A stretch of DNA of 64,000 nucleotides from an uncultured Clostridium sp. (GTDB lineage: Bacteria > Bacillota > Clostridia > TANB77 > CAG-508): assembly GCA_947384775.1 (NCBI GenBank), contig CANDIF010000002.1, positions 123,967 through 187,966 on the forward strand, in the 5' to 3' direction. Positions 2,704-54,096 of this stretch are shown here, in pieces (the stretch's first letter is position 1; each line of letters opens with the position of its first letter). Both the position numbers and the translations under genes were made by a program. The notes under the pieces are model-generated. The model made no database searches, was not told where the DNA came from, and saw only the letters and a list, made by a program, of their open reading frames with translations.

Positions 2704-4194
2704 TTATAATTTCTTTAAATCCTTAACCGTTGGTTCTGTTATAACTTTTCCTTCATATGTGTATCTTGAGCCATGGCATGGGCAATCCCAGGTTTTCTCC
2801 AAATTATTCCATGATAATTCACATCCAAGATGTGCACAATATGGTTCAACTATAAATAATTTACCATTTTCATCTTTATAAGCTCCTATCTTTTTTCCTT
2901 TATATTCCACTACTCCACCTGAGTTTTTTTCTATTTCATCAAATGCTGTATCTGGTATCTTCAGTTTATTTATTGCTAATGAATATACTGTTTGTTTTAA
3001 CATGTTTCCAAATTCTTTATAATTTCCAATTGGTGCAAATCTTGTTGCTTTGTATATTTCTTCATATTCATTTTCTTTTTTCAAAATTTTATCTGAAATT
3101 ATTTTAGCTGCTACATATGATGTTGTCATTCCCCATTTTTTATACCCTGTTGCAACATAAATATTGGGCATTAAATTCGAAAAATCTCCTATATATGGTA
3201 CTTTATCTATTGAAACACAATCTTGCGTTGCCCATCTATATTCTATTTCAGCTTTTGGATAAATTTCTTTTGCATAAGTTTCTAGTTGTTTATAACTTAT
3301 ATCTAAATCTACACTATTTTCTCCTGTTTTGTGTTCTGCTCCACCTATTATTAAGAATTCATCATTTATTGGTCTAAATGATGCTACTGGGCTTTCTGCT
3401 GAAATATACATTTCTTTTGAAAGCTTTTTATTTGGCTTTATTGCTATTGCATATGATCTATCTTGATACATTTTCAAAAAGTGCATCCCAGGAAAATTTT
3501 TTATAGGATAATGAGTTGACATTACTACATATTTGGCAGCTATCGTTTTCTCGTCTTCTGTATTTACATTATATCCTTCTGACTTCTTTTTTATTTCTAC
3601 AACTCTTGAATTTGTAAATATATCTATGTTATTTTTTTTGATAACTTCTACTAATCCATATAAATATTTCAAAGGATGAAATTTAGCTTGATTTGTTAAT
3701 TTTATTCCTGCCTTTATTTCAAATGGTAGATTGCTTTTTTCAACAAATTCAGCATTCCCTCCTATATTTCTTACAGCATCTACTTCATCCTTTATTTTCT
3801 GTATATATTCATCTTTGCATGTATATATATAGTTTTCTACTCTTTCAAAATCACATTCTATATTTTCTTTTTTTATAATTTCCTTTATTCCTTTTATTGC
3901 TTCCTCATTTGATTCAAAGTATTTTTGTGCATATTCTTTTCCAAATGTTTTTATTAGATAATCATATATTAATCCATGTTGGCTTGTAATCTTTGCTGTA
4001 GTATTTTCAGTAACTCCACTACATACTTCTCCTTTATCTATTAAACATATTTTTAAACCTTTATTTAGTAGCATATATGCTGTACTTATTCCTGTTATTC
4101 CAGCTCCTATTATGCACACATCTACCTCTATATCTTTATTCAATTTTTCAAACTGAGGTCTTTTAGTCGTTTCTAACCAATATGAATTATCCAT
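2704..4194 (-). CDS. FAD-dependent oxidoreductase with a C-terminal Rieske [2Fe-2S] domain (YhfW-like)
   Basis: N-terminal GAGITG dinucleotide-binding motif and a C-terminal CAHLGC...CPCHGS Rieske motif. The start is set at the ATG (MDNSYW) that has an AAAGGTGA ribosome-binding site. The GTG at 4203 listed in the ORF track lies inside that site. Confidence 0.7.
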   Translation of the reverse strand: MDNSYWLETTKRPQFEKLNKDIEVDVCIIGAGITGISTAYMLLNKGLKICLIDKGEVCSGVTENTTAKITSQHGLIYDYLIKTFGKEYAQKYFESNEEAIKGIKEIIKKENIECDFERVENYIYTCKDEYIQKIKDEVDAVRNIGGNAEFVEKSNLPFEIKAGIKLTNQAKFHPLKYLYGLVEVIKKNNIDIFTNSRVVEIKKKSEGYNVNTEDEKTIAAKYVVMSTHYPIKNFPGMHFLKMYQDRSYAIAIKPNKKLSKEMYISAESPVASFRPINDEFLIIGGAEHKTGENSVDLDISYKQLETYAKEIYPKAEIEYRWATQDCVSIDKVPYIGDFSNLMPNIYVATGYKKWGMTTSYVAAKIISDKILKKENEYEEIYKATRFAPIGNYKEFGNMLKQTVYSLAINKLKIPDTAFDEIEKNSGGVVEYKGKKIGAYKDENGKLFIVEPYCAHLGCELSWNNLEKTWDCPCHGSRYTYEGKVITEPTVKDLKKL

Positions 4195-16284: not shown

Positions 16285-16380
16285 TTAATGCAATTTTACT
16301 CCAAGCCAAATTTATGGTATAATTATATTATGTAAATATCCTTAGCAAATTTCAAACTAAAAATTTAGGAGGAATCCGCA

Positions 16381-16905
16381 ATGAAAACCAAGCACGAAAG
16401 TTCTACCCAGAAGGCCCCTACCGCCAAGAAGCTCCAGATTTTCCGCTTCAGCATCATCCCGACCATCATCAGATCTGTACTCTTGCTTCTTTTCTTACTG
16501 TTCATCCGTTTCGTGACGCTCCCGCAGTTCTTCTTCTACTTCATCATTTATGAGGATCAGACGCCCATCATTTTCATCACCCTCAAAATCGTCCGTCTGC
16601 TCTTCCTGATGCTGGTCCTTCTCACCATCATCTTCTGCGTCCGTACCGCATGCAAGAAGCTCCGCATCAGAAAAGGAACGCTCATGTATCGGCATGGACT
16701 TCTCATCAAGAAAACCAAGGTGTTCCCTCTTCCGAGCGAAGTGGAATATTCCTTTAAGCAGTCCTTGATTCAGAAGATTGTCGGAGTTTCGACTCTGACC
16801 ATTACCCTACCAAAAGGAGGAAAGAAGAAGGAGAAAACGCTTGTTTTCAGGAATCTCAAAAACGAGGAGCAGTTCGTTAAGCTTCTCACTCAGAACTACA
16901 CTTGA
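16381..16905 (+). CDS. Membrane protein with a bacterial PH (bPH_2/YdbT-like) domain, carried on a GC-rich foreign segment
   Basis: Two N-terminal TM helices followed by a PH-like beta-rich domain. About 48% GC with strong GC3 codon bias (CTC, CCG, GTC, ACG), unlike the roughly 27% GC host. It has its own AGGAGG ribosome-binding site and a TGgTATAAT-like promoter upstream. Confidence 0.6.
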   Translation: MKTKHESSTQKAPTAKKLQIFRFSIIPTIIRSVLLLLFLLFIRFVTLPQFFFYFIIYEDQTPIIFITLKIVRLLFLMLVLLTIIFCVRTACKKLRIRKGTLMYRHGLLIKKTKVFPLPSEVEYSFKQSLIQKIVGVSTLTITLPKGGKKKEKTLVFRNLKNEEQFVKLLTQNYT

Positions 16906-16977
16906 TCAATAGCGCCTATGCCATCTGATGTACAATAATTTGTTGAATTCCATTTTTGTTTAAGAACTTTTCGAAAT

Positions 16978-50822: not shown

Positions 50823-51103
50823 CTTATGTTTAATTTTTTCTATCTCATAAAAGAAATGATCCACTTATTTTCTCCTGTTTTTCTGATGGTTAAAATTTTC
50901 CTCGGTCCTACAATAATTAGCAGGACAATCAGAAATTCGAGAAGTTTAGACCATGAGGAGTAGTCTGTCCCAATCCATTCTGTACAAAATTGCACTAGGG
51001 TTGATAACATAGATAGAAGCCTCCTTCAACATAGAGATATTTTAATTTTAACATGTTTTATGTAAATTTGCAAACATCCCTCTATTTATAGTATAATTTC
51101 TTT

Positions 51104-51964
51104 ATGAAAACTTTAATTGTAAATGAAAAATATGATAATAAAAAATTAATAAATTTTATAAAAGACTCTTTCCCAGAGCTTTCTTTAAATGTTTTAAATA
51201 AAGCTCTTCGTAATAAAGATATAAAAATTAACAACATTCGCACAAAAGAAAATGTTGTTATTCATAATGGTGATAGCATTGCAGTTTATATCTCTGATGA
51301 ATTCTTATACAAAAATATTAGTCTTGAAAAAATCTACGAAGATGATAATATTTTAGTGATTAATAAGCCTTCTAATATAGAAGTAGTTAGTCTAACTTCT
51401 AATGAAAAAACACTAACTACTTTATTAAAAAAGGATTACGAATTTATAGAACCTTGTCATAGATTAGATAGAAACACTACTGGATTAGTTCTTTTTGCTA
51501 AAAATCAAATTGCTTTAGATATACTTTTGCAAAAATTTAAAAATAAAGAAATCAAAAAATTCTATAAATGTATGGTTTATGGTATTCCTAAAAAAGGCTC
51601 TGCAACTTTAGAATCTTATTTATTTAAAGATACAAAGAAATCTATGGTTTATATTTCTGATATTCCAAAATCTGGTTATAAAAAAATTATCACATCTTAT
51701 AACGTTTTAGAAAAAGATATAAAAAATAATACTAGTATACTTAGCGTAACGCTTGAATTTTCCGGTAGAACACATCAAATTAGAGCTCACCTAGCTCACA
51801 TTGGTCTACCTATTGTTGGTGATGGAAAATATGGTATAAACTCTATCAACAAAAAATTCAATAAAAAAATCCAAGAACTTTGTTCTTACAAAATTATTTT
51901 CAATTTTTCAACAGATGCAAATGTTTTAAATTATTTAAATCAAAAAGAAATTTCATTATTTTAA
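51104..51964 (+). CDS. RluA-family pseudouridine synthase
   Basis: An S4-like N-terminus and the catalytic HRLDRNTTGLVLFAKN motif. Confidence 0.8.
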   Translation: MKTLIVNEKYDNKKLINFIKDSFPELSLNVLNKALRNKDIKINNIRTKENVVIHNGDSIAVYISDEFLYKNISLEKIYEDDNILVINKPSNIEVVSLTSNEKTLTTLLKKDYEFIEPCHRLDRNTTGLVLFAKNQIALDILLQKFKNKEIKKFYKCMVYGIPKKGSATLESYLFKDTKKSMVYISDIPKSGYKKIITSYNVLEKDIKNNTSILSVTLEFSGRTHQIRAHLAHIGLPIVGDGKYGINSINKKFNKKIQELCSYKIIFNFSTDANVLNYLNQKEISLF

Positions 51965-52052
51965 GTTGTACAAACTGCAATTTATCTTTCCTAAAATTAC
52001 CTTTGATTTCGTCTTCAAATTATGTTAATATAATTTTAGGAGGCACAGAGTT

Positions 52053-52295
52053 ATGGGTGTTATTAAAGATTTTAAAAACATAGATTCTTCAGTTATTAAA
52101 ATTATGAAAAATGGTTATAAATTTTCTTTTTTACTTGCAATTTTCTCAAGTTATATCTTATTTTTATATACATATAATCCAATATCTCACATTTGGTTTG
52201 AAAGTGGCATATTATTATTAAAAGTAAGTATCACTGCTTTTGTAAGCTTTTTGTCTTTCGGTTTTGTATTTGATAAGATAAAAAAAGGCTGGTAA
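52053..52295 (+). CDS. Small hypothetical membrane protein (80 aa, two TM helices)
   Basis: Strong AGGAGG ribosome-binding site. AT-rich, host-like codon usage. Confidence 0.45.
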   Translation: MGVIKDFKNIDSSVIKIMKNGYKFSFLLAIFSSYILFLYTYNPISHIWFESGILLLKVSITAFVSFLSFGFVFDKIKKGW

Positions 52296-52356
52296 ATTTG
52301 ATTTTTGCTCCTAAGTATGTTATTATATATAAATACTACTTATAGGAGGTTTCGAT

Positions 52357-52572
52357 ATGCCAAACGGATGTAAATGTAGTGAATGTGAGCTCAGAGCCGA
52401 GTGTCCTCGGCTCAAGCAGCTGATCGACAGTGGTGCACTCGCTGCCGCACCGCCTCCGCAGACTGTTTCTGCGGAAAGTGACATCAAGCGTGCTGCCCCC
52501 ACTGCTGAGGACTGGGAGGACTTCTGGTACAACTTCAACGACCCCTATTCTCCCGACCACTCTCAGAGGTAA
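52357..52572 (+). CDS. Small Cys-rich protein (71 aa; CxCxxC...C N-terminus, Pro/Ala-rich middle, acidic aromatic C-terminus) on a GC-rich foreign segment
   Basis: TAGGAGG ribosome-binding site. About 55% GC with GC3-rich codons. It is followed by a GC-rich terminator that abuts the gatB stop codon. Confidence 0.45.
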   Translation: MPNGCKCSECELRAECPRLKQLIDSGALAAAPPPQTVSAESDIKRAAPTAEDWEDFWYNFNDPYSPDHSQR

Positions 52573-52619
52573 CCATTCCAAATTCCAGCCGGCACAGCAT
52601 TTTAAGTAGCACAAAACCT

Positions 52620-52656
52620 ACACCCCACTTGCTTACTGCGAGTGGGGTGTTTCAAT
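52620..52656. terminator. GC-rich hairpin terminator ACACCCCAC-N13-GTGGGGTGT shared by the foreign small gene and convergent gatB
   Basis: 9-bp GC-rich stem with a T-run after it. Confidence 0.55.
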
Positions 52657-54096
52657 TTACTTATTCAATTCTTCTAAAAACATTTTATTTAACATTTGTG
52701 GATTTGCTTTTCCTTTAGTCTCTTTCATAGCTTGTCCTACTAAAAATCCTAATGCTCTATCTTTTCCTGCTTTATAGTCTACTATTGAATTTGGATTTGC
52801 TTCCAATATTTTTTGTACTACTTCTTTTATTGCTCCTTCATCAGAAATCTGAATCCATCCTTTTTCTTTTATTATTTGCTCTGGGCTTCTTGGATTTTCA
52901 AATAGCTCATCTAATACTTTTTTTGCTATGCTAGAACTAATAGTTCCTTTATCTATAAGTATTACTAACTCGCCTAGTTCTTCTGCAGTAAAAGGTATTT
53001 CATTTGGGTCTTTTTCTTGTTCATTTAATATTTTTGTTATATCTGTCATTATCCAGTTACTTACTGCTTTTGGATTGTTACATACTTTTGTTGCACCTTC
53101 AAATAAATCTGAAAAATATTTTGAAGAAATCAATATATTACTATCATATTCTGGTAACTTGAATTCTTGCATATATCTTTCTTTTCTACTTTCTGGCATT
53201 TCTGGTAATGTTTTTCTAATATCTTCTATCATTTCTTCTGATATCCTTATTACTGCCAAATCTGGTTCTGGGAAATATCTATAATCTTGTGCATCTTCTT
53301 TATCTCTCATTGAAAAAGTTTTTCCTGATACTTCATCCCATCTTAATGTTTCTTGCTCTATTTTTCCACCTTGCTCTAAAATATCAATTTGTCTTTCTGC
53401 TTCATATTCTATAGCTCTAGTTATTGATCTAAAAGAATTCATATTTTTCATTTCTGTTCTTGTTCCTAATTTTGTGTCTCCTTTTTTTCTTACAGAAACA
53501 TTAACATCTGCTCTTAATGATCCTTGCTGCATCTTACAATCTGAAACTTCTATATATTCTAATATTGATTTTAACTTCTTTAAATAGCTATCTACTTCCT
53601 CTGTACTTCTTAAATCTGGCTCTGATACTATTTCTATTAGTGGAACTCCTGCTCTATTTAAGTCTACTAGACTTCCGCTTCCATATTCATCATGATTTAA
53701 TTTTCCTGCATCTTCCTCAATATGAATTCTAACCAATCTTATTTTCTTAGTTCCATTTTCTGTTTCAATTTCTACATAACCATGTTCACAAAGTGGCATA
53801 TCAAATTGTGATATCTGATATGATTTTGGTAAATCAGGATAGAAGTAGTTTTTTCTATCATTTTTGCTGTTTCTTGCTATTTCACAATTTGTTGCTAGTC
53901 CTGCTTTTATAGCATATTCAACAACCTTTTTATTAAGCACAGGTAACGTCCCTGGCATTGCCATACATATTGGACAACAATGTGTATTTGGTTCTCCACC
54001 AAATTCTGTAGGGCAAGAACAAAATATTTTTGTTTTTGTTGAAAGCTCACTATGAACTTCTAAACCTATTATCATTTCATAATCTTCTCTTGACAT
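52657..54096 (-). CDS. gatB: Asp-tRNA(Asn)/Glu-tRNA(Gln) amidotransferase subunit B
   Basis: IIGLEVHSELSTKTKIFC... and a GatB/YqeY C-terminal domain. The start is set at the internal ATG (MSREDYEMIIGLEVH). Confidence 0.9.
   Translation of the reverse strand: MSREDYEMIIGLEVHSELSTKTKIFCSCPTEFGGEPNTHCCPICMAMPGTLPVLNKKVVEYAIKAGLATNCEIARNSKNDRKNYFYPDLPKSYQISQFDMPLCEHGYVEIETENGTKKIRLVRIHIEEDAGKLNHDEYGSGSLVDLNRAGVPLIEIVSEPDLRSTEEVDSYLKKLKSILEYIEVSDCKMQQGSLRADVNVSVRKKGDTKLGTRTEMKNMNSFRSITRAIEYEAERQIDILEQGGKIEQETLRWDEVSGKTFSMRDKEDAQDYRYFPEPDLAVIRISEEMIEDIRKTLPEMPESRKERYMQEFKLPEYDSNILISSKYFSDLFEGATKVCNNPKAVSNWIMTDITKILNEQEKDPNEIPFTAEELGELVILIDKGTISSSIAKKVLDELFENPRSPEQIIKEKGWIQISDEGAIKEVVQKILEANPNSIVDYKAGKDRALGFLVGQAMKETKGKANPQMLNKMFLEELNK

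What the first reader, a model, noticed from the sequence alone, without database searches (positions are those of the whole stretch)
52340..52656. GC-rich single-gene insert between a native small membrane protein gene and gatB, encoding a 71-aa Cys-rich protein
MPNGCKCSECELRAECPRLKQLID... has a 4-Cys zinc-ribbon-like N-terminus, a Pro/Ala linker and an acidic aromatic tail (EDWEDFWYNFNDPYSPD). The DNA is about 55% GC with non-host codons. It has its own ribosome-binding site and a GC-rich terminator fused to the gatB stop codon. It lies directly downstream of a native AT-rich 80-aa two-TM protein, with a 60-nt gap. The function is unknown. Pairing a small Cys-rich protein with a tiny membrane protein resembles small anti-sigma, regulator or immunity pairs.
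Basis: partly seen in the sequence, partly recalled or inferred. Interest (0 to 1): 0.5.

Follow-up and report, generated by a model that had tools for sequence, protein, structure and literature searches.

The report
Orphan GC-rich small protein gene
The GC-rich patch next to gatB is a real, fast-evolving gene for a 71-residue cysteine-containing protein with its own promoter, found only in a small group of uncultured gut-type Clostridium species; its function and its persistently odd base composition are still unexplained.

Summary
Window 52357-52572 (+) is a 71-aa ORF at 56% GC (GC3 0.58), while long ORFs in the window average GC3 0.17. It has an AGGAGG ribosome-binding site and a hairpin terminator 6 nt from the gatB stop.

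It is not a chimera or a recent insert. The identical protein occurs in many independent assemblies. Divergent versions (20-77% identity) fill the same slot in 12 related lineages, all after an 80-aa two-TM gene ("TM80") and before gatB.

It is protein-coding:
- Only this frame is open in all ten lineages checked.
- Length differences keep the frame.
- pN is well below pS (Fisher p 1e-3 to 3e-15).

Each copy has its own conserved sigma-A-type promoter and a terminator that looks bidirectional.

Only the CxxCE pair is invariant, not four cysteines. No Pfam, NCBIfam, PADLOC, Rfam or credible PDB relative exists, and AlphaFold confidence is low.

One lineage has lost the gene cleanly and kept TM80, and alleles reassort relative to TM80, so the pair is not obligate.

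The GC richness persists across the clade. Either slow amelioration of an old foreign gene or selection on the transcript fits the data.

My inferred mechanism is a small metal- or thiol-binding protein that acts by binding a partner protein.

The parts
52003..52031 (+). Weak candidate promoter of the 80-aa membrane gene (TTGATT, 17-nt spacer, TAATAT, preceded by TATGT)
   Evidence: Read from the sequence. It is conserved in L008 and L013. It falls below the threshold of the consensus scan, so it is only a candidate.
52053..52295 (+). TM80: an 80-aa protein with two predicted transmembrane segments, host-like composition, detected only in this clade
   Evidence: ORF. GC is 0.23 and GC3 is 0.19. 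There is no Pfam hit. The word-indexed search found only 11 relatives, all 60-100% identical. dN/dS is 0.08-0.33.
52298..52326 (+). Own promoter of the small gene: TTGATT, 17-nt spacer, TATTAT, with TG just upstream (extended -10)
   Evidence: Found by the consensus scan. The same TTGnnT-N17-TATnAT architecture with the upstream TG is kept in all 10 aligned lineages and is visible by eye in L042 and L043.
52344..52349 (+). Shine-Dalgarno sequence AGGAGG, 7 nt before the ATG
   Evidence: Read from the sequence. It is invariant in all lineages.
52357..52572 (+). Small ORF of 71 aa. It has an N-terminal Cys cluster (C5, C7, C10, C16, with CxxCE invariant), a short helix (PRLKQLIDSG), a variable linker, the acidic-aromatic motif DWEDFWY and a C-terminal HSxR
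   Evidence: This is the only frame open in all 10 lineages checked. pN is below pS in six pairs, with Fisher p from 9e-4 to 3e-15. Lengths range from 61 to 71 aa with the frame kept. Homologues are P0002, P0003, P0015, P0016, P0019 and P0020.
52388..52421 (+). Local RNA hairpin inside codons 11-22 (8-bp inner stem GAGCCGAG/CUCGGCUC in this allele), closed by GAG...CUC in most alleles
   Evidence: It appears in the fold and in the consensus structures. E11 is GAG in 11 of 12 alleles, and the conserved Leu of the RL motif is CTC in 9 of 11 full-length alleles. The hairpin is more stable than synonymous resampling in 10 of 11 alleles, with mean z -1.55. Support is moderate and the alleles are not independent.
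52573..52619 (+). 3' UTR at 45% GC, better conserved among the close lineages than the middle of the ORF. AAAACC at 52613-52618 would give the U-tract for termination of gatB on the other strand
   Evidence: Alignments. The bidirectional role is an inference from the sequence.
52620..52650 (.). Hairpin terminator with 13 pairs, apparently shared by TM80 and the small gene (+) and gatB (-)
   Evidence: Found by the scan. The stem shows compensatory changes across lineages, with 6 pairs changed on both sides. A similar hairpin is all that remains in the empty-site lineage L020.

Best explanation
Shown:
- This is a genuine small-protein gene, detected only in a narrow clade of uncultured Clostridium, and it looks like its own transcription unit.
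- The unit consists of a sigma-A-type promoter with an extended -10, a strong ribosome-binding site, a 61-71-codon ORF, a short conserved 3' UTR and a hairpin terminator that appears to be shared with the convergent gatB.
- The gene is old within the clade. It evolves about 2-10 times faster at the protein level than its neighbours, and it is dispensable, because one lineage has lost it.

Inferred from the anatomy:
- No terminator-like hairpin lies between TM80 and the small gene, so it is probably also transcribed by read-through from TM80.
- The product is a soluble, mostly disordered protein.
- Its N-terminal CxxC-centred cysteine cluster, with a third Cys and possibly the C-terminal His, binds a metal or acts as a thiol switch.
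- The short amphipathic helix and the acidic-aromatic motif (DWEDFWY) dock onto a partner protein. This would make it a small regulatory or inhibitory binder. The co-located TM80 membrane protein is the most obvious candidate partner, but not a required one.

Unresolved:
- The GC-rich composition may be an incompletely ameliorated legacy of an old high-GC acquisition, a result of selection on the transcript, or both.
For: Real and widespread:
- The exact protein is in 79 collection blocks and the 77% homologue in 246, always with the same gene order.
- Twelve lineages carry an allele in the same slot.

Coding:
- It is the only frame open in all ten lineages checked.
- pS/pN is 0.37/0.12 for window vs L008 and 0.82/0.15 for L014 vs L029. 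Fisher p ranges from 9e-4 to 3e-15 over six pairs.
- Synonymous changes occur at conserved Cys, Gly, Asp, Ser, His and Arg codons.

Own expression signals:
- The promoter, SD and terminator are conserved, and the terminator stem shows compensatory changes.
- No terminator-like hairpin was found between TM80 and the small gene.

Fast evolution and dispensability:
- dN is 0.13-0.38 in the four closest lineage pairs, against 0.02-0.07 for TM80 and gatB. Omega is 0.18-0.35 there, against 0.04-0.18.
- L020 to L022 have an empty site, while TM80 is 99% identical to the L036 allele that carries the gene.

Protein features:
- Invariant positions in the alignments are M1, C7, C10, E11, D52 and S69.
- The two alleles that lack C16 both have a Cys at position 57 instead, and no allele with C16 has it. 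This hints that the two ends of the protein meet.
- Helices at roughly residues 8-24 and 50-60 were predicted twice, at low confidence.
Against: - No homology to any characterised family supports the binding or metal model.
- AlphaFold confidence is low (pLDDT 58-62).
- The C16/C57 swap may be a single evolutionary event.
- Metal binding, expression and any partner are untested.
- The codon usage is very unfavourable for this host (z = -4.8), which is odd for a simple constitutive gene.
- A conserved local RNA hairpin inside the ORF shows that the protein is not the only thing under selection.
Confidence: 0.55

Rival explanations
1. Dual-function transcript. The roughly 330-nt GC-rich RNA acts as a riboregulator, or needs particular stability or structure, and also encodes the small protein, as SR1/SR1P does in Bacillus subtilis.
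For: - The GC enrichment covers synonymous sites (GC3 0.35-0.63 in all alleles, against 0.12-0.20 next door) and also the non-coding 3' UTR, which is about 45% GC.
- The 3' UTR is more conserved than the middle of the ORF among close lineages.
- A hairpin in codons 11-22 is kept through synonymous choice: GAG in 11 of 12 alleles and CTC in 9 of 11. It is more stable than synonymous resampling (mean z -1.55).
- Polarised third-position changes run about 1.7:1 from GC to AT. I estimate roughly 7:1 for host mutation bias alone.
- The architecture of promoter, short ORF and terminator resembles that of known dual-function sRNAs (PMC12612679).
Against: - There is no globally conserved structure. 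The structure conservation index is 0.37, 0.17 and 0.03 for 4, 7 and 10 alleles.
- The covariation term is only -1.2 kcal/mol and comes mostly from the terminator.
- The excess folding energy of the whole transcript (z about -3.3) is about the size of the terminator hairpin.
- Synonymous-shuffle z-scores for the ORF are mixed, from +0.8 to -4.4.
- dS equals that of the neighbours.
- Allele L030 has dropped to 36% GC with the ORF intact.
- In the cleanest comparison the ratio of GC-to-AT to AT-to-GC changes is 10:3, which is not distinguishable from neutral amelioration.
- No Rfam family matches and no target is known.
Confidence: 0.15
2. Obligate two-gene module with TM80, such as a toxin or effector with an immunity protein, a membrane anchor with a soluble regulator, or a strain-specific recognition cassette.
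For: - The two genes are adjacent in all 12 lineages.
- Both were detected only in this clade.
- No terminator-like hairpin lies between them, so a bicistronic read-through transcript is expected.
- L020 and L016 are 98-100% identical over most of about 3 kb upstream and about 0.75 kb of gatB. TM80 is only 78-83% identical and the small gene is absent in one and present in the other. The pair therefore behaves as one divergent block.
- Keeping the membrane gene while losing the soluble gene would fit an orphan immunity gene.
Against: - The small gene has its own conserved promoter.
- TM80 alleles and small-gene alleles reassort. L024 and L030 are sisters for TM80 (distance 0.12) but not for the small ORF (0.54), and L020 carries the L036-type TM80 with no small gene.
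- TM80 is under ordinary purifying selection and has host-like composition.
- The small protein has no signal peptide or double-glycine leader, and it is acidic and probably disordered, unlike known toxins.
- Neither protein has a meaningful PADLOC hit.
Confidence: 0.2
3. A non-coding structured RNA, or a decaying remnant of foreign DNA, in which the ORF is incidental.
For: GC-rich intergenic islands in AT-rich genomes are a classic signature of structured RNAs (PMC6429828). Several frames of a GC-rich stretch stay open by chance, and the antisense -0 frame is open in 6 of 10 alleles.
Against: - The start codon, SD spacing, stop position and reading frame are kept in all full-length lineages despite up to 60% nucleotide divergence and several indels.
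- pN is well below pS.
- Protein motifs are conserved through synonymous changes.
- No Rfam family matches and there is no conserved global fold.
Confidence: 0.03
4. A precursor of a ribosomally made, post-translationally modified peptide or bacteriocin, with TM80 as the immunity or export protein.
For: It is a small Cys-containing peptide next to a small membrane protein. The sequence varies strongly between lineages around conserved motifs. One allele (L024) reads LIDGG, which resembles a double-glycine site.
Against: - No maturase, radical-SAM enzyme, C39 peptidase or ABC transporter is among the called genes within about 6 kb on either side. The neighbours are housekeeping genes: mfd, a U32 peptidase, a pseudouridine synthase, gatCAB and a PBP.
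- The Cys cluster is at the extreme N-terminus, where a leader peptide would be.
- The Gly-Gly is not conserved; only G26 is nearly invariant.
Confidence: 0.05

Closest known systems
SR1 / SR1P of Bacillus subtilis (dual-function sRNA encoding a 39-aa protein that binds GapA; PMC5013986, PMC12612679)
   Same: Both are short independent transcripts with their own promoter and terminator, and both encode a small soluble protein. In SR1 the peptide is better conserved than the base-pairing region, and here too the protein motifs are the best-conserved part.
   Different: I did not test sequence relatedness, and no Rfam family, SR1 included, matches. This transcript is longer (about 330 nt, 61-71 codons), no base-pairing target is known, and it sits in an unrelated genomic context. 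The GC-rich composition in an AT-rich host is not a described feature of SR1.
Small zinc-binding regulators of Firmicutes such as CsfB/Gin and Fin (anti-sigma proteins of 48-76 aa with CxxC pairs; recalled from general knowledge, not tested by sequence here)
   Same: They are similar in size, soluble, carry a CxxC motif, and are presumed to act by binding a larger protein.
   Different: Those proteins have two CxxC pairs forming a C4 site. Here only one CxxC is invariant, and the other candidate ligands move (C16 or C57, His near the C-terminus). No family-level match exists in Pfam or NCBIfam, and the promoter looks sigma-A-type, not sporulation-specific.
   Same: The overall layout is alike: an N-terminal Cys cluster, a C...QLID-G stretch (43% identity over 21 aligned columns) and an acidic tail containing Trp.
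   Different: The profile comparison gives only 6% probability. Pfam YacG does not match any family member, and the PDB profile search did not return YacG. The resemblance is a lead about mode of action only.
Short ORFs (sORFs) found in GC-rich intergenic regions of AT-rich bacterial genomes (GC-IGR surveys; PMC6429828)
   Same: That survey reports that roughly a quarter of the high-GC intergenic regions analysed in one genome turned out to carry short protein-coding regions rather than structured RNAs. This case is of that kind.
   Different: The surveyed sORFs are mostly tiny regulatory upstream ORFs or uncharacterised peptides. This one is a 71-aa protein with its own promoter, and its GC3 is 3-4 times the host value across a whole clade.

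Membership tests
Zinc-ribbon / C4 zinc-finger small proteins | Four conserved metal ligands arranged as two CxxC (or CxxH) knuckles | tested here: not met
   Only C7 and C10 are invariant. C5 is missing in 3 alleles, and C16 is Tyr in L016 and L024.
Zinc-ribbon / C4 zinc-finger small proteins | Significant match to a zinc-ribbon family profile or to a solved structure | tested here: not met
   Pfam and NCBIfam give no credible family for any member. The PDB profile search gives only augmin dgt4 at E = 0.005, which I judge spurious.
Zinc-ribbon / C4 zinc-finger small proteins | Beta-hairpin knuckle fold | tested here: inconclusive
   AlphaFold models have pLDDT 58-62 and show helices only. This is too uncertain to decide.
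YacG (PF03884) | Profile-level sequence similarity to YacG | tested here: not met
   hhalign gives 6.4% probability over 21 columns, and Pfam gives no hit.
Known regulatory RNA families (Rfam 15, including VR-RNA of C. perfringens and SR1) | Covariance-model match at or near the gathering score | tested here: not met
   The whole window at gathering threshold gives only two tRNAs. A permissive scan of 51900-52800 gives only chance-level hits, all below half of their gathering scores.
Dual-function sRNA (as a functional class) | A translated small ORF within the transcript | tested here: met
   Coding selection is shown. Translation itself was not measured.
Dual-function sRNA (as a functional class) | A base-pairing regulatory activity on another RNA | not testable with these tools
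   There is no transcriptome or interactome data. The only indirect hints are the GC-rich UTR and the conserved local hairpin.
Toxin-antitoxin or bacteriocin-immunity pair with TM80 | The two genes are strictly co-inherited and co-vary | tested here: not met
   The small gene is lost while TM80 stays 99% intact (L020 vs L036). Allele trees are discordant for L024, L030 and L016.
Toxin-antitoxin or bacteriocin-immunity pair with TM80 | Match to known defence or toxin families, or a secretion leader on the peptide | tested here: not met
   PADLOC gives no hit for the small protein and only E = 0.028 for TM80. No conserved Gly-Gly leader is present.
Recently acquired genomic islet (horizontal transfer) | Present in one lineage and absent from close relatives, or bounded by mobility signatures | tested here: not met
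   It is present in 12 lineages, including the most divergent (L014, L029). There are no flanking repeats or mobility genes, and no match in the phage or plasmid collections.

The most novel reading that the evidence does not exclude
The GC-rich composition is actively maintained by selection on the transcript in a 29%-GC genome. On this reading, the small gene is a dual-function RNA and protein locus that circulates as deeply divergent alleles and null alleles among closely related Clostridium populations by homologous recombination. That would make it a strain-specific recognition, immunity or regulatory cassette, in the manner of pherotype or immunity loci.
Probability: 0.12. Interest if true: 0.7.

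Novelty: new member of a known kind. Interest (0 to 1): 0.35.

Why it matters
Small proteins are badly under-annotated. At least four of the twelve alleles found here (L014, L016, L033, L042) were not called as genes on the contigs examined. This case gives a clean, checkable example of a clade-restricted small-protein family with complete expression signals.

It also shows how a GC island in an AT-rich genome can be a protein gene rather than a structured RNA or an assembly error.

The open point with wider interest is why a gene can hold a GC3 three to four times the host value across a whole clade. If selection on the RNA is responsible, the locus would be a natural test case for composition-level selection on a bacterial transcript.

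As it stands it is a solid but functionally unassigned orphan gene.

Tried and rejected
- Rfam, at gathering threshold on the whole window and permissively on 51900-52800, gave nothing credible.
- Pfam, NCBIfam and PADLOC on the window protein and on family members gave nothing credible.
- PHROGs gave phrog_4744 (unknown function) at E = 8e-5, but only over residues 42-59, the acidic-aromatic motif. It was weak or absent for the other alleles tested. I treat it as a motif coincidence.
- The PDB profile search returned only augmin dgt4 at E = 0.005. I rejected it as spurious.
- DNA searches of the phage and plasmid collections found no match. tblastn against phages gave only Gordonia phage hits at E = 5.
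- A scan of viral contigs returned L041. It is a methyltransferase-like protein that happens to contain TEDWEDYY, not a relative.
- The exhaustive HMM search of 1.84 billion representatives found only family members plus two repetitive proteins.
- The metagenome-contig scan with TM80 added only one contig of the window's own lineage.
- The YacG resemblance was not supported.
- A relationship to the GC-rich, Cys-rich C-terminus of the 415-aa pilin-like protein in the same window was rejected (hhalign probability 0.1%).
- The antisense ORFs (92 and 71 aa) were rejected, because stops appear in other lineages.
- A globally conserved RNA structure is not supported.
- A 5'-3' pairing that would sequester the RBS was predicted. 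It rests only on invariant pairs and weakens in L029, so I did not adopt it.
- Fold searches were not run, because both AlphaFold models had pLDDT near 60 and matches would be meaningless.
- The first two folding scripts timed out. One search gave no output, and one search gave results for six lineages only.

Full report
**1. The observation**

- AGGAGG lies 7 nt upstream of the ATG.
- The ORF follows an 80-aa two-TM gene, here called TM80 (52053-52295), after a 61-nt gap.
- A hairpin with 13 pairs at 52620-52650 ends 6 nt before the stop codon of the convergent gatB.

The composition is clearly unusual.
- GC peaks at 0.58-0.61, against a window mean of 0.287.
- ORF GC is 0.56 and GC3 is 0.58. 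TM80 has GC3 0.19, and the 44 long ORFs of the window have GC3 0.166 +/- 0.09.
- The codon-usage score is 4.8 sd below the host mean. Many codons each make up only 1-4% of their family in this host, for example CTC, CGG, CCC, CCG and GCC.

**2. Not an artefact and not a recent insert**

The identical protein is indexed in 79 blocks of the assembly collection. A 77%-identical homologue (P0002) is in 246 blocks. On every contig read, the gene order is the same: mfd, U32 peptidase, pseudouridine synthase, TM80, small ORF, then the convergent gatB-gatA-gatC, then a PBP.

Looking up the relatives of TM80 and reading the slot behind each one showed that more divergent versions of the small ORF occupy the same position. 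Several of them were not called as genes. I found 12 lineages in all: the window, L008, L013, L036, L033, L042, L016, L024, L030, L014, L029 and the partial L043.

Protein identity to the window allele falls to 20-37% in the distant lineages. The only named genomes are MAGs labelled uncultured Clostridium or Clostridia.

One lineage (L020-L022, with L023 ending too soon to judge) has an empty site. TM80 is followed after 45 nt by gatB, with only a hairpin that resembles the terminator of the L033 allele. The most divergent lineages (L014, L029) carry the gene, so presence is ancestral and the empty site is a loss.

**3. It is protein-coding**

- The + frame is the only one free of stops in all ten lineages checked. 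The antisense frame that looks open in the window has stops elsewhere.
- ORF lengths vary from 61 to 71 codons with the frame intact.
- Nei-Gojobori counts give pS/pN of 0.37/0.12 for window vs L008 and 0.82/0.15 for L014 vs L029. Fisher p ranges from 9e-4 to 3e-15 over six pairs.
- The codon alignment shows synonymous variation at conserved Cys, Gly, Asp, Ser, His, Leu and Arg positions, including AGA/AGG/CGG.
- dS matches that of the neighbours (about 0.5 for window vs L008). dN is 2-10 times higher. Omega is 0.18-0.35 in the closest pairs, against 0.04-0.18 for TM80 and gatB.

The gene is therefore under purifying selection but evolves fast. Most change and all indels fall in the central linker.

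**4. Anatomy of the unit**

All ten aligned lineages keep a sigma-A-type promoter directly after the TM80 stop. It reads TTGnnT, a 17-nt spacer, TATnAT, with TG just upstream of the -10. In the window it lies at 52298-52326. The same architecture is visible in L042 and L043.

The SD sequence is invariant.

The terminator stem shows compensatory changes, with six pairs changed on both sides. The AAAACC just upstream of the stem would give the U-tract for gatB termination on the other strand, so the terminator looks bidirectional. This is an inference.

No terminator-like hairpin was found between TM80 and the small gene. TM80 transcripts should therefore read through it. The small gene would then be expressed both from a bicistronic and from a monocistronic RNA. 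This too is an inference.

**5. The protein**

- Invariant positions in the alignments are M1, C7, C10, E11, D52 and S69. L22 and G26 are nearly invariant.
- The conserved pattern is CxxCE, followed by an aromatic or aliphatic residue and R/K, usually then C-P-R/K. Next come a short amphipathic helix (LKxLIDxG), a variable linker of about 25 residues, an acidic-aromatic motif (DWEDFWY and variants) and a C-terminal [H/V/T]-S-x-[R/K].
- The '4-Cys zinc ribbon' is not a family feature.
- The two alleles that lack C16 (L016, L024) both carry Cys at position 57 instead, and no allele with C16 does. This suggests that the N-terminal cluster and the C-terminal helix meet, possibly around a metal. 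It may be a single evolutionary event.

Two AlphaFold runs gave pLDDT 62 and 58, with helices at about residues 8-24 and 50-60. That is too weak to justify fold searches.

No characterised relative was found.
- Pfam, NCBIfam and PADLOC gave no credible match, and the PDB profile search gave only a spurious one.
- The exhaustive HMM search of 1.84 billion representatives found only family members.
- A resemblance to YacG (C...QLID-G plus an acidic Trp tail) scores only 6% by profile comparison.
- A PHROG of unknown function matches the acidic-aromatic motif only.

**6. The GC anomaly**

GC3 is 0.35-0.63 in all eleven measured alleles. In the ten TM80 genes measured it is 0.12-0.20. The non-coding 3' UTR is also about 45% GC. 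Synonymous sites between distant alleles are saturated.

Two readings fit the data.

(a) Incomplete amelioration of an old acquisition from a very GC-rich donor.
- Polarised third-position changes show an excess of GC-to-AT, 10:3 in the cleanest trio and about 1.7:1 overall.
- Allele L030 has fallen to 36% GC with the ORF intact.
- A rough two-state decay model allows the present values only if the ancestor had GC3 of about 0.9 and flank dS is at the low end of the observed range.

(b) Selection on the transcript.
- The observed ratio is well below the roughly 7:1 I estimate for host bias alone. Saturation blurs this, and the 10:3 count alone is not distinguishable from neutral amelioration.
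- A local hairpin over codons 11-22 is kept by synonymous choice. E11 is GAG in 11 of 12 alleles, the conserved Leu is CTC in 9 of 11, and the inner stems vary.
- That hairpin is more stable than synonymous resampling in 10 of 11 alleles, with mean z -1.55. The alleles are not independent.

Against a classical structured RNA:
- The structure conservation index is low: 0.37, 0.17 and 0.03 for 4, 7 and 10 alleles.
- The covariation term is -1.2 kcal/mol and comes mainly from the terminator.
- The transcript-wide z of about -3.3 is roughly the contribution of the terminator.
- No Rfam family matches.

I leave this question unresolved.

**7. Relation to TM80**

Both genes were detected only in this clade. 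They are always adjacent.

L020 and L016 are 98-100% identical over most of about 3 kb upstream and about 0.75 kb of gatB. From about 60 nt before the TM80 start to the gatB stop they differ sharply. TM80 is 78-83% identical, and the small gene is absent in one and present in the other. In this comparison the pair behaves as one divergent, recombining block.

Other observations point the other way.
- L020 and L036 share a 99%-identical TM80 and differ only by the presence of the small gene.
- TM80 and small-ORF distances are discordant. L024 and L030 are at 0.12 for TM80 but 0.54 for the small ORF.

The small gene is therefore separable and dispensable. TM80 is not a toxin that needs it. A looser functional link remains possible.

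**8. Verdict**

This is a real small-protein gene, found only in this clade, with complete expression signals. It is old within the clade, fast-evolving and occasionally lost.

The most likely mode of action is inferred, not shown. It is a small soluble protein with a CxxC-centred metal or thiol site that binds a partner through its amphipathic helix and its acidic-aromatic motif. An RNA-level role is a secondary possibility.

It belongs to the known kind 'independently transcribed bacterial small ORF' and is a new family within that kind. Interest is moderate. The persistent GC3 anomaly and the allele and null-allele polymorphism are the unusual features, but neither has been shown to be adaptive.

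Noticed in passing
window 58745-59992 (-), especially 58745-59140: A 415-aa protein has a prepilin-like hydrophobic N-terminus. Its C-terminal ~130 residues are very Cys-rich (about 20 Cys) and are encoded by a GC-enriched stretch (0.42-0.50, against about 0.30 for the rest of the gene). hhalign finds no relation to the small ORF (probability 0.1%).
   Followed up: partly
window 16331-16930: A second GC island (up to 0.52) coincides with a 174-aa membrane protein that has a bacterial PH domain (bPH_2, E = 2.7e-7). It lies between rpsI and holA-like genes. It may be another compositionally foreign gene.
   Followed up: partly
window 31361-31920 (-): A GC-enriched stretch (up to 0.49) encodes a 160-aa GNAT acetyltransferase-like ORF (Acetyltransf_1, E = 1.2e-5).
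   Followed up: partly
window 50880-51030: A 36%-GC intergenic patch lies between the U32 peptidase terminator and the pseudouridine synthase gene. A permissive Rfam scan found nothing credible. Some assemblies-56-aa ORFs here on the minus strand.
   Followed up: partly
L030 about 3570-3800: In one lineage, two similar ~55-nt hairpin-forming repeats (MITE/REP-like, ...CCTCATCCACATGCTTTGCCTGTGAGG... and ...CCTTACCCATAAGCTTTGCTTGTGAGG...) are inserted between the small gene's terminator and gatB. This lengthens the spacer to 321 nt.
   Followed up: no
L016, L020 and L036 (slot between the pseudouridine synthase gene and gatB): The locus is mosaic. gatB and the pseudouridine synthase gene of L020 are 99-100% identical to those of L016. 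Its TM80 is 99% identical to that of L036 and only about 81% identical to that of L016. This indicates homologous recombination between related Clostridium populations, with breakpoints at the edges of the TM80 and small-gene block.
   Followed up: yes
L005 4482-5608 and L006 4763-5608: In some assemblies of the window's own lineage, the 5' part of the pseudouridine synthase gene differs strongly. In L005 the gene is split into two called ORFs of 146 and 171 aa. This suggests an indel, frameshift or recombinant segment there.
   Followed up: no
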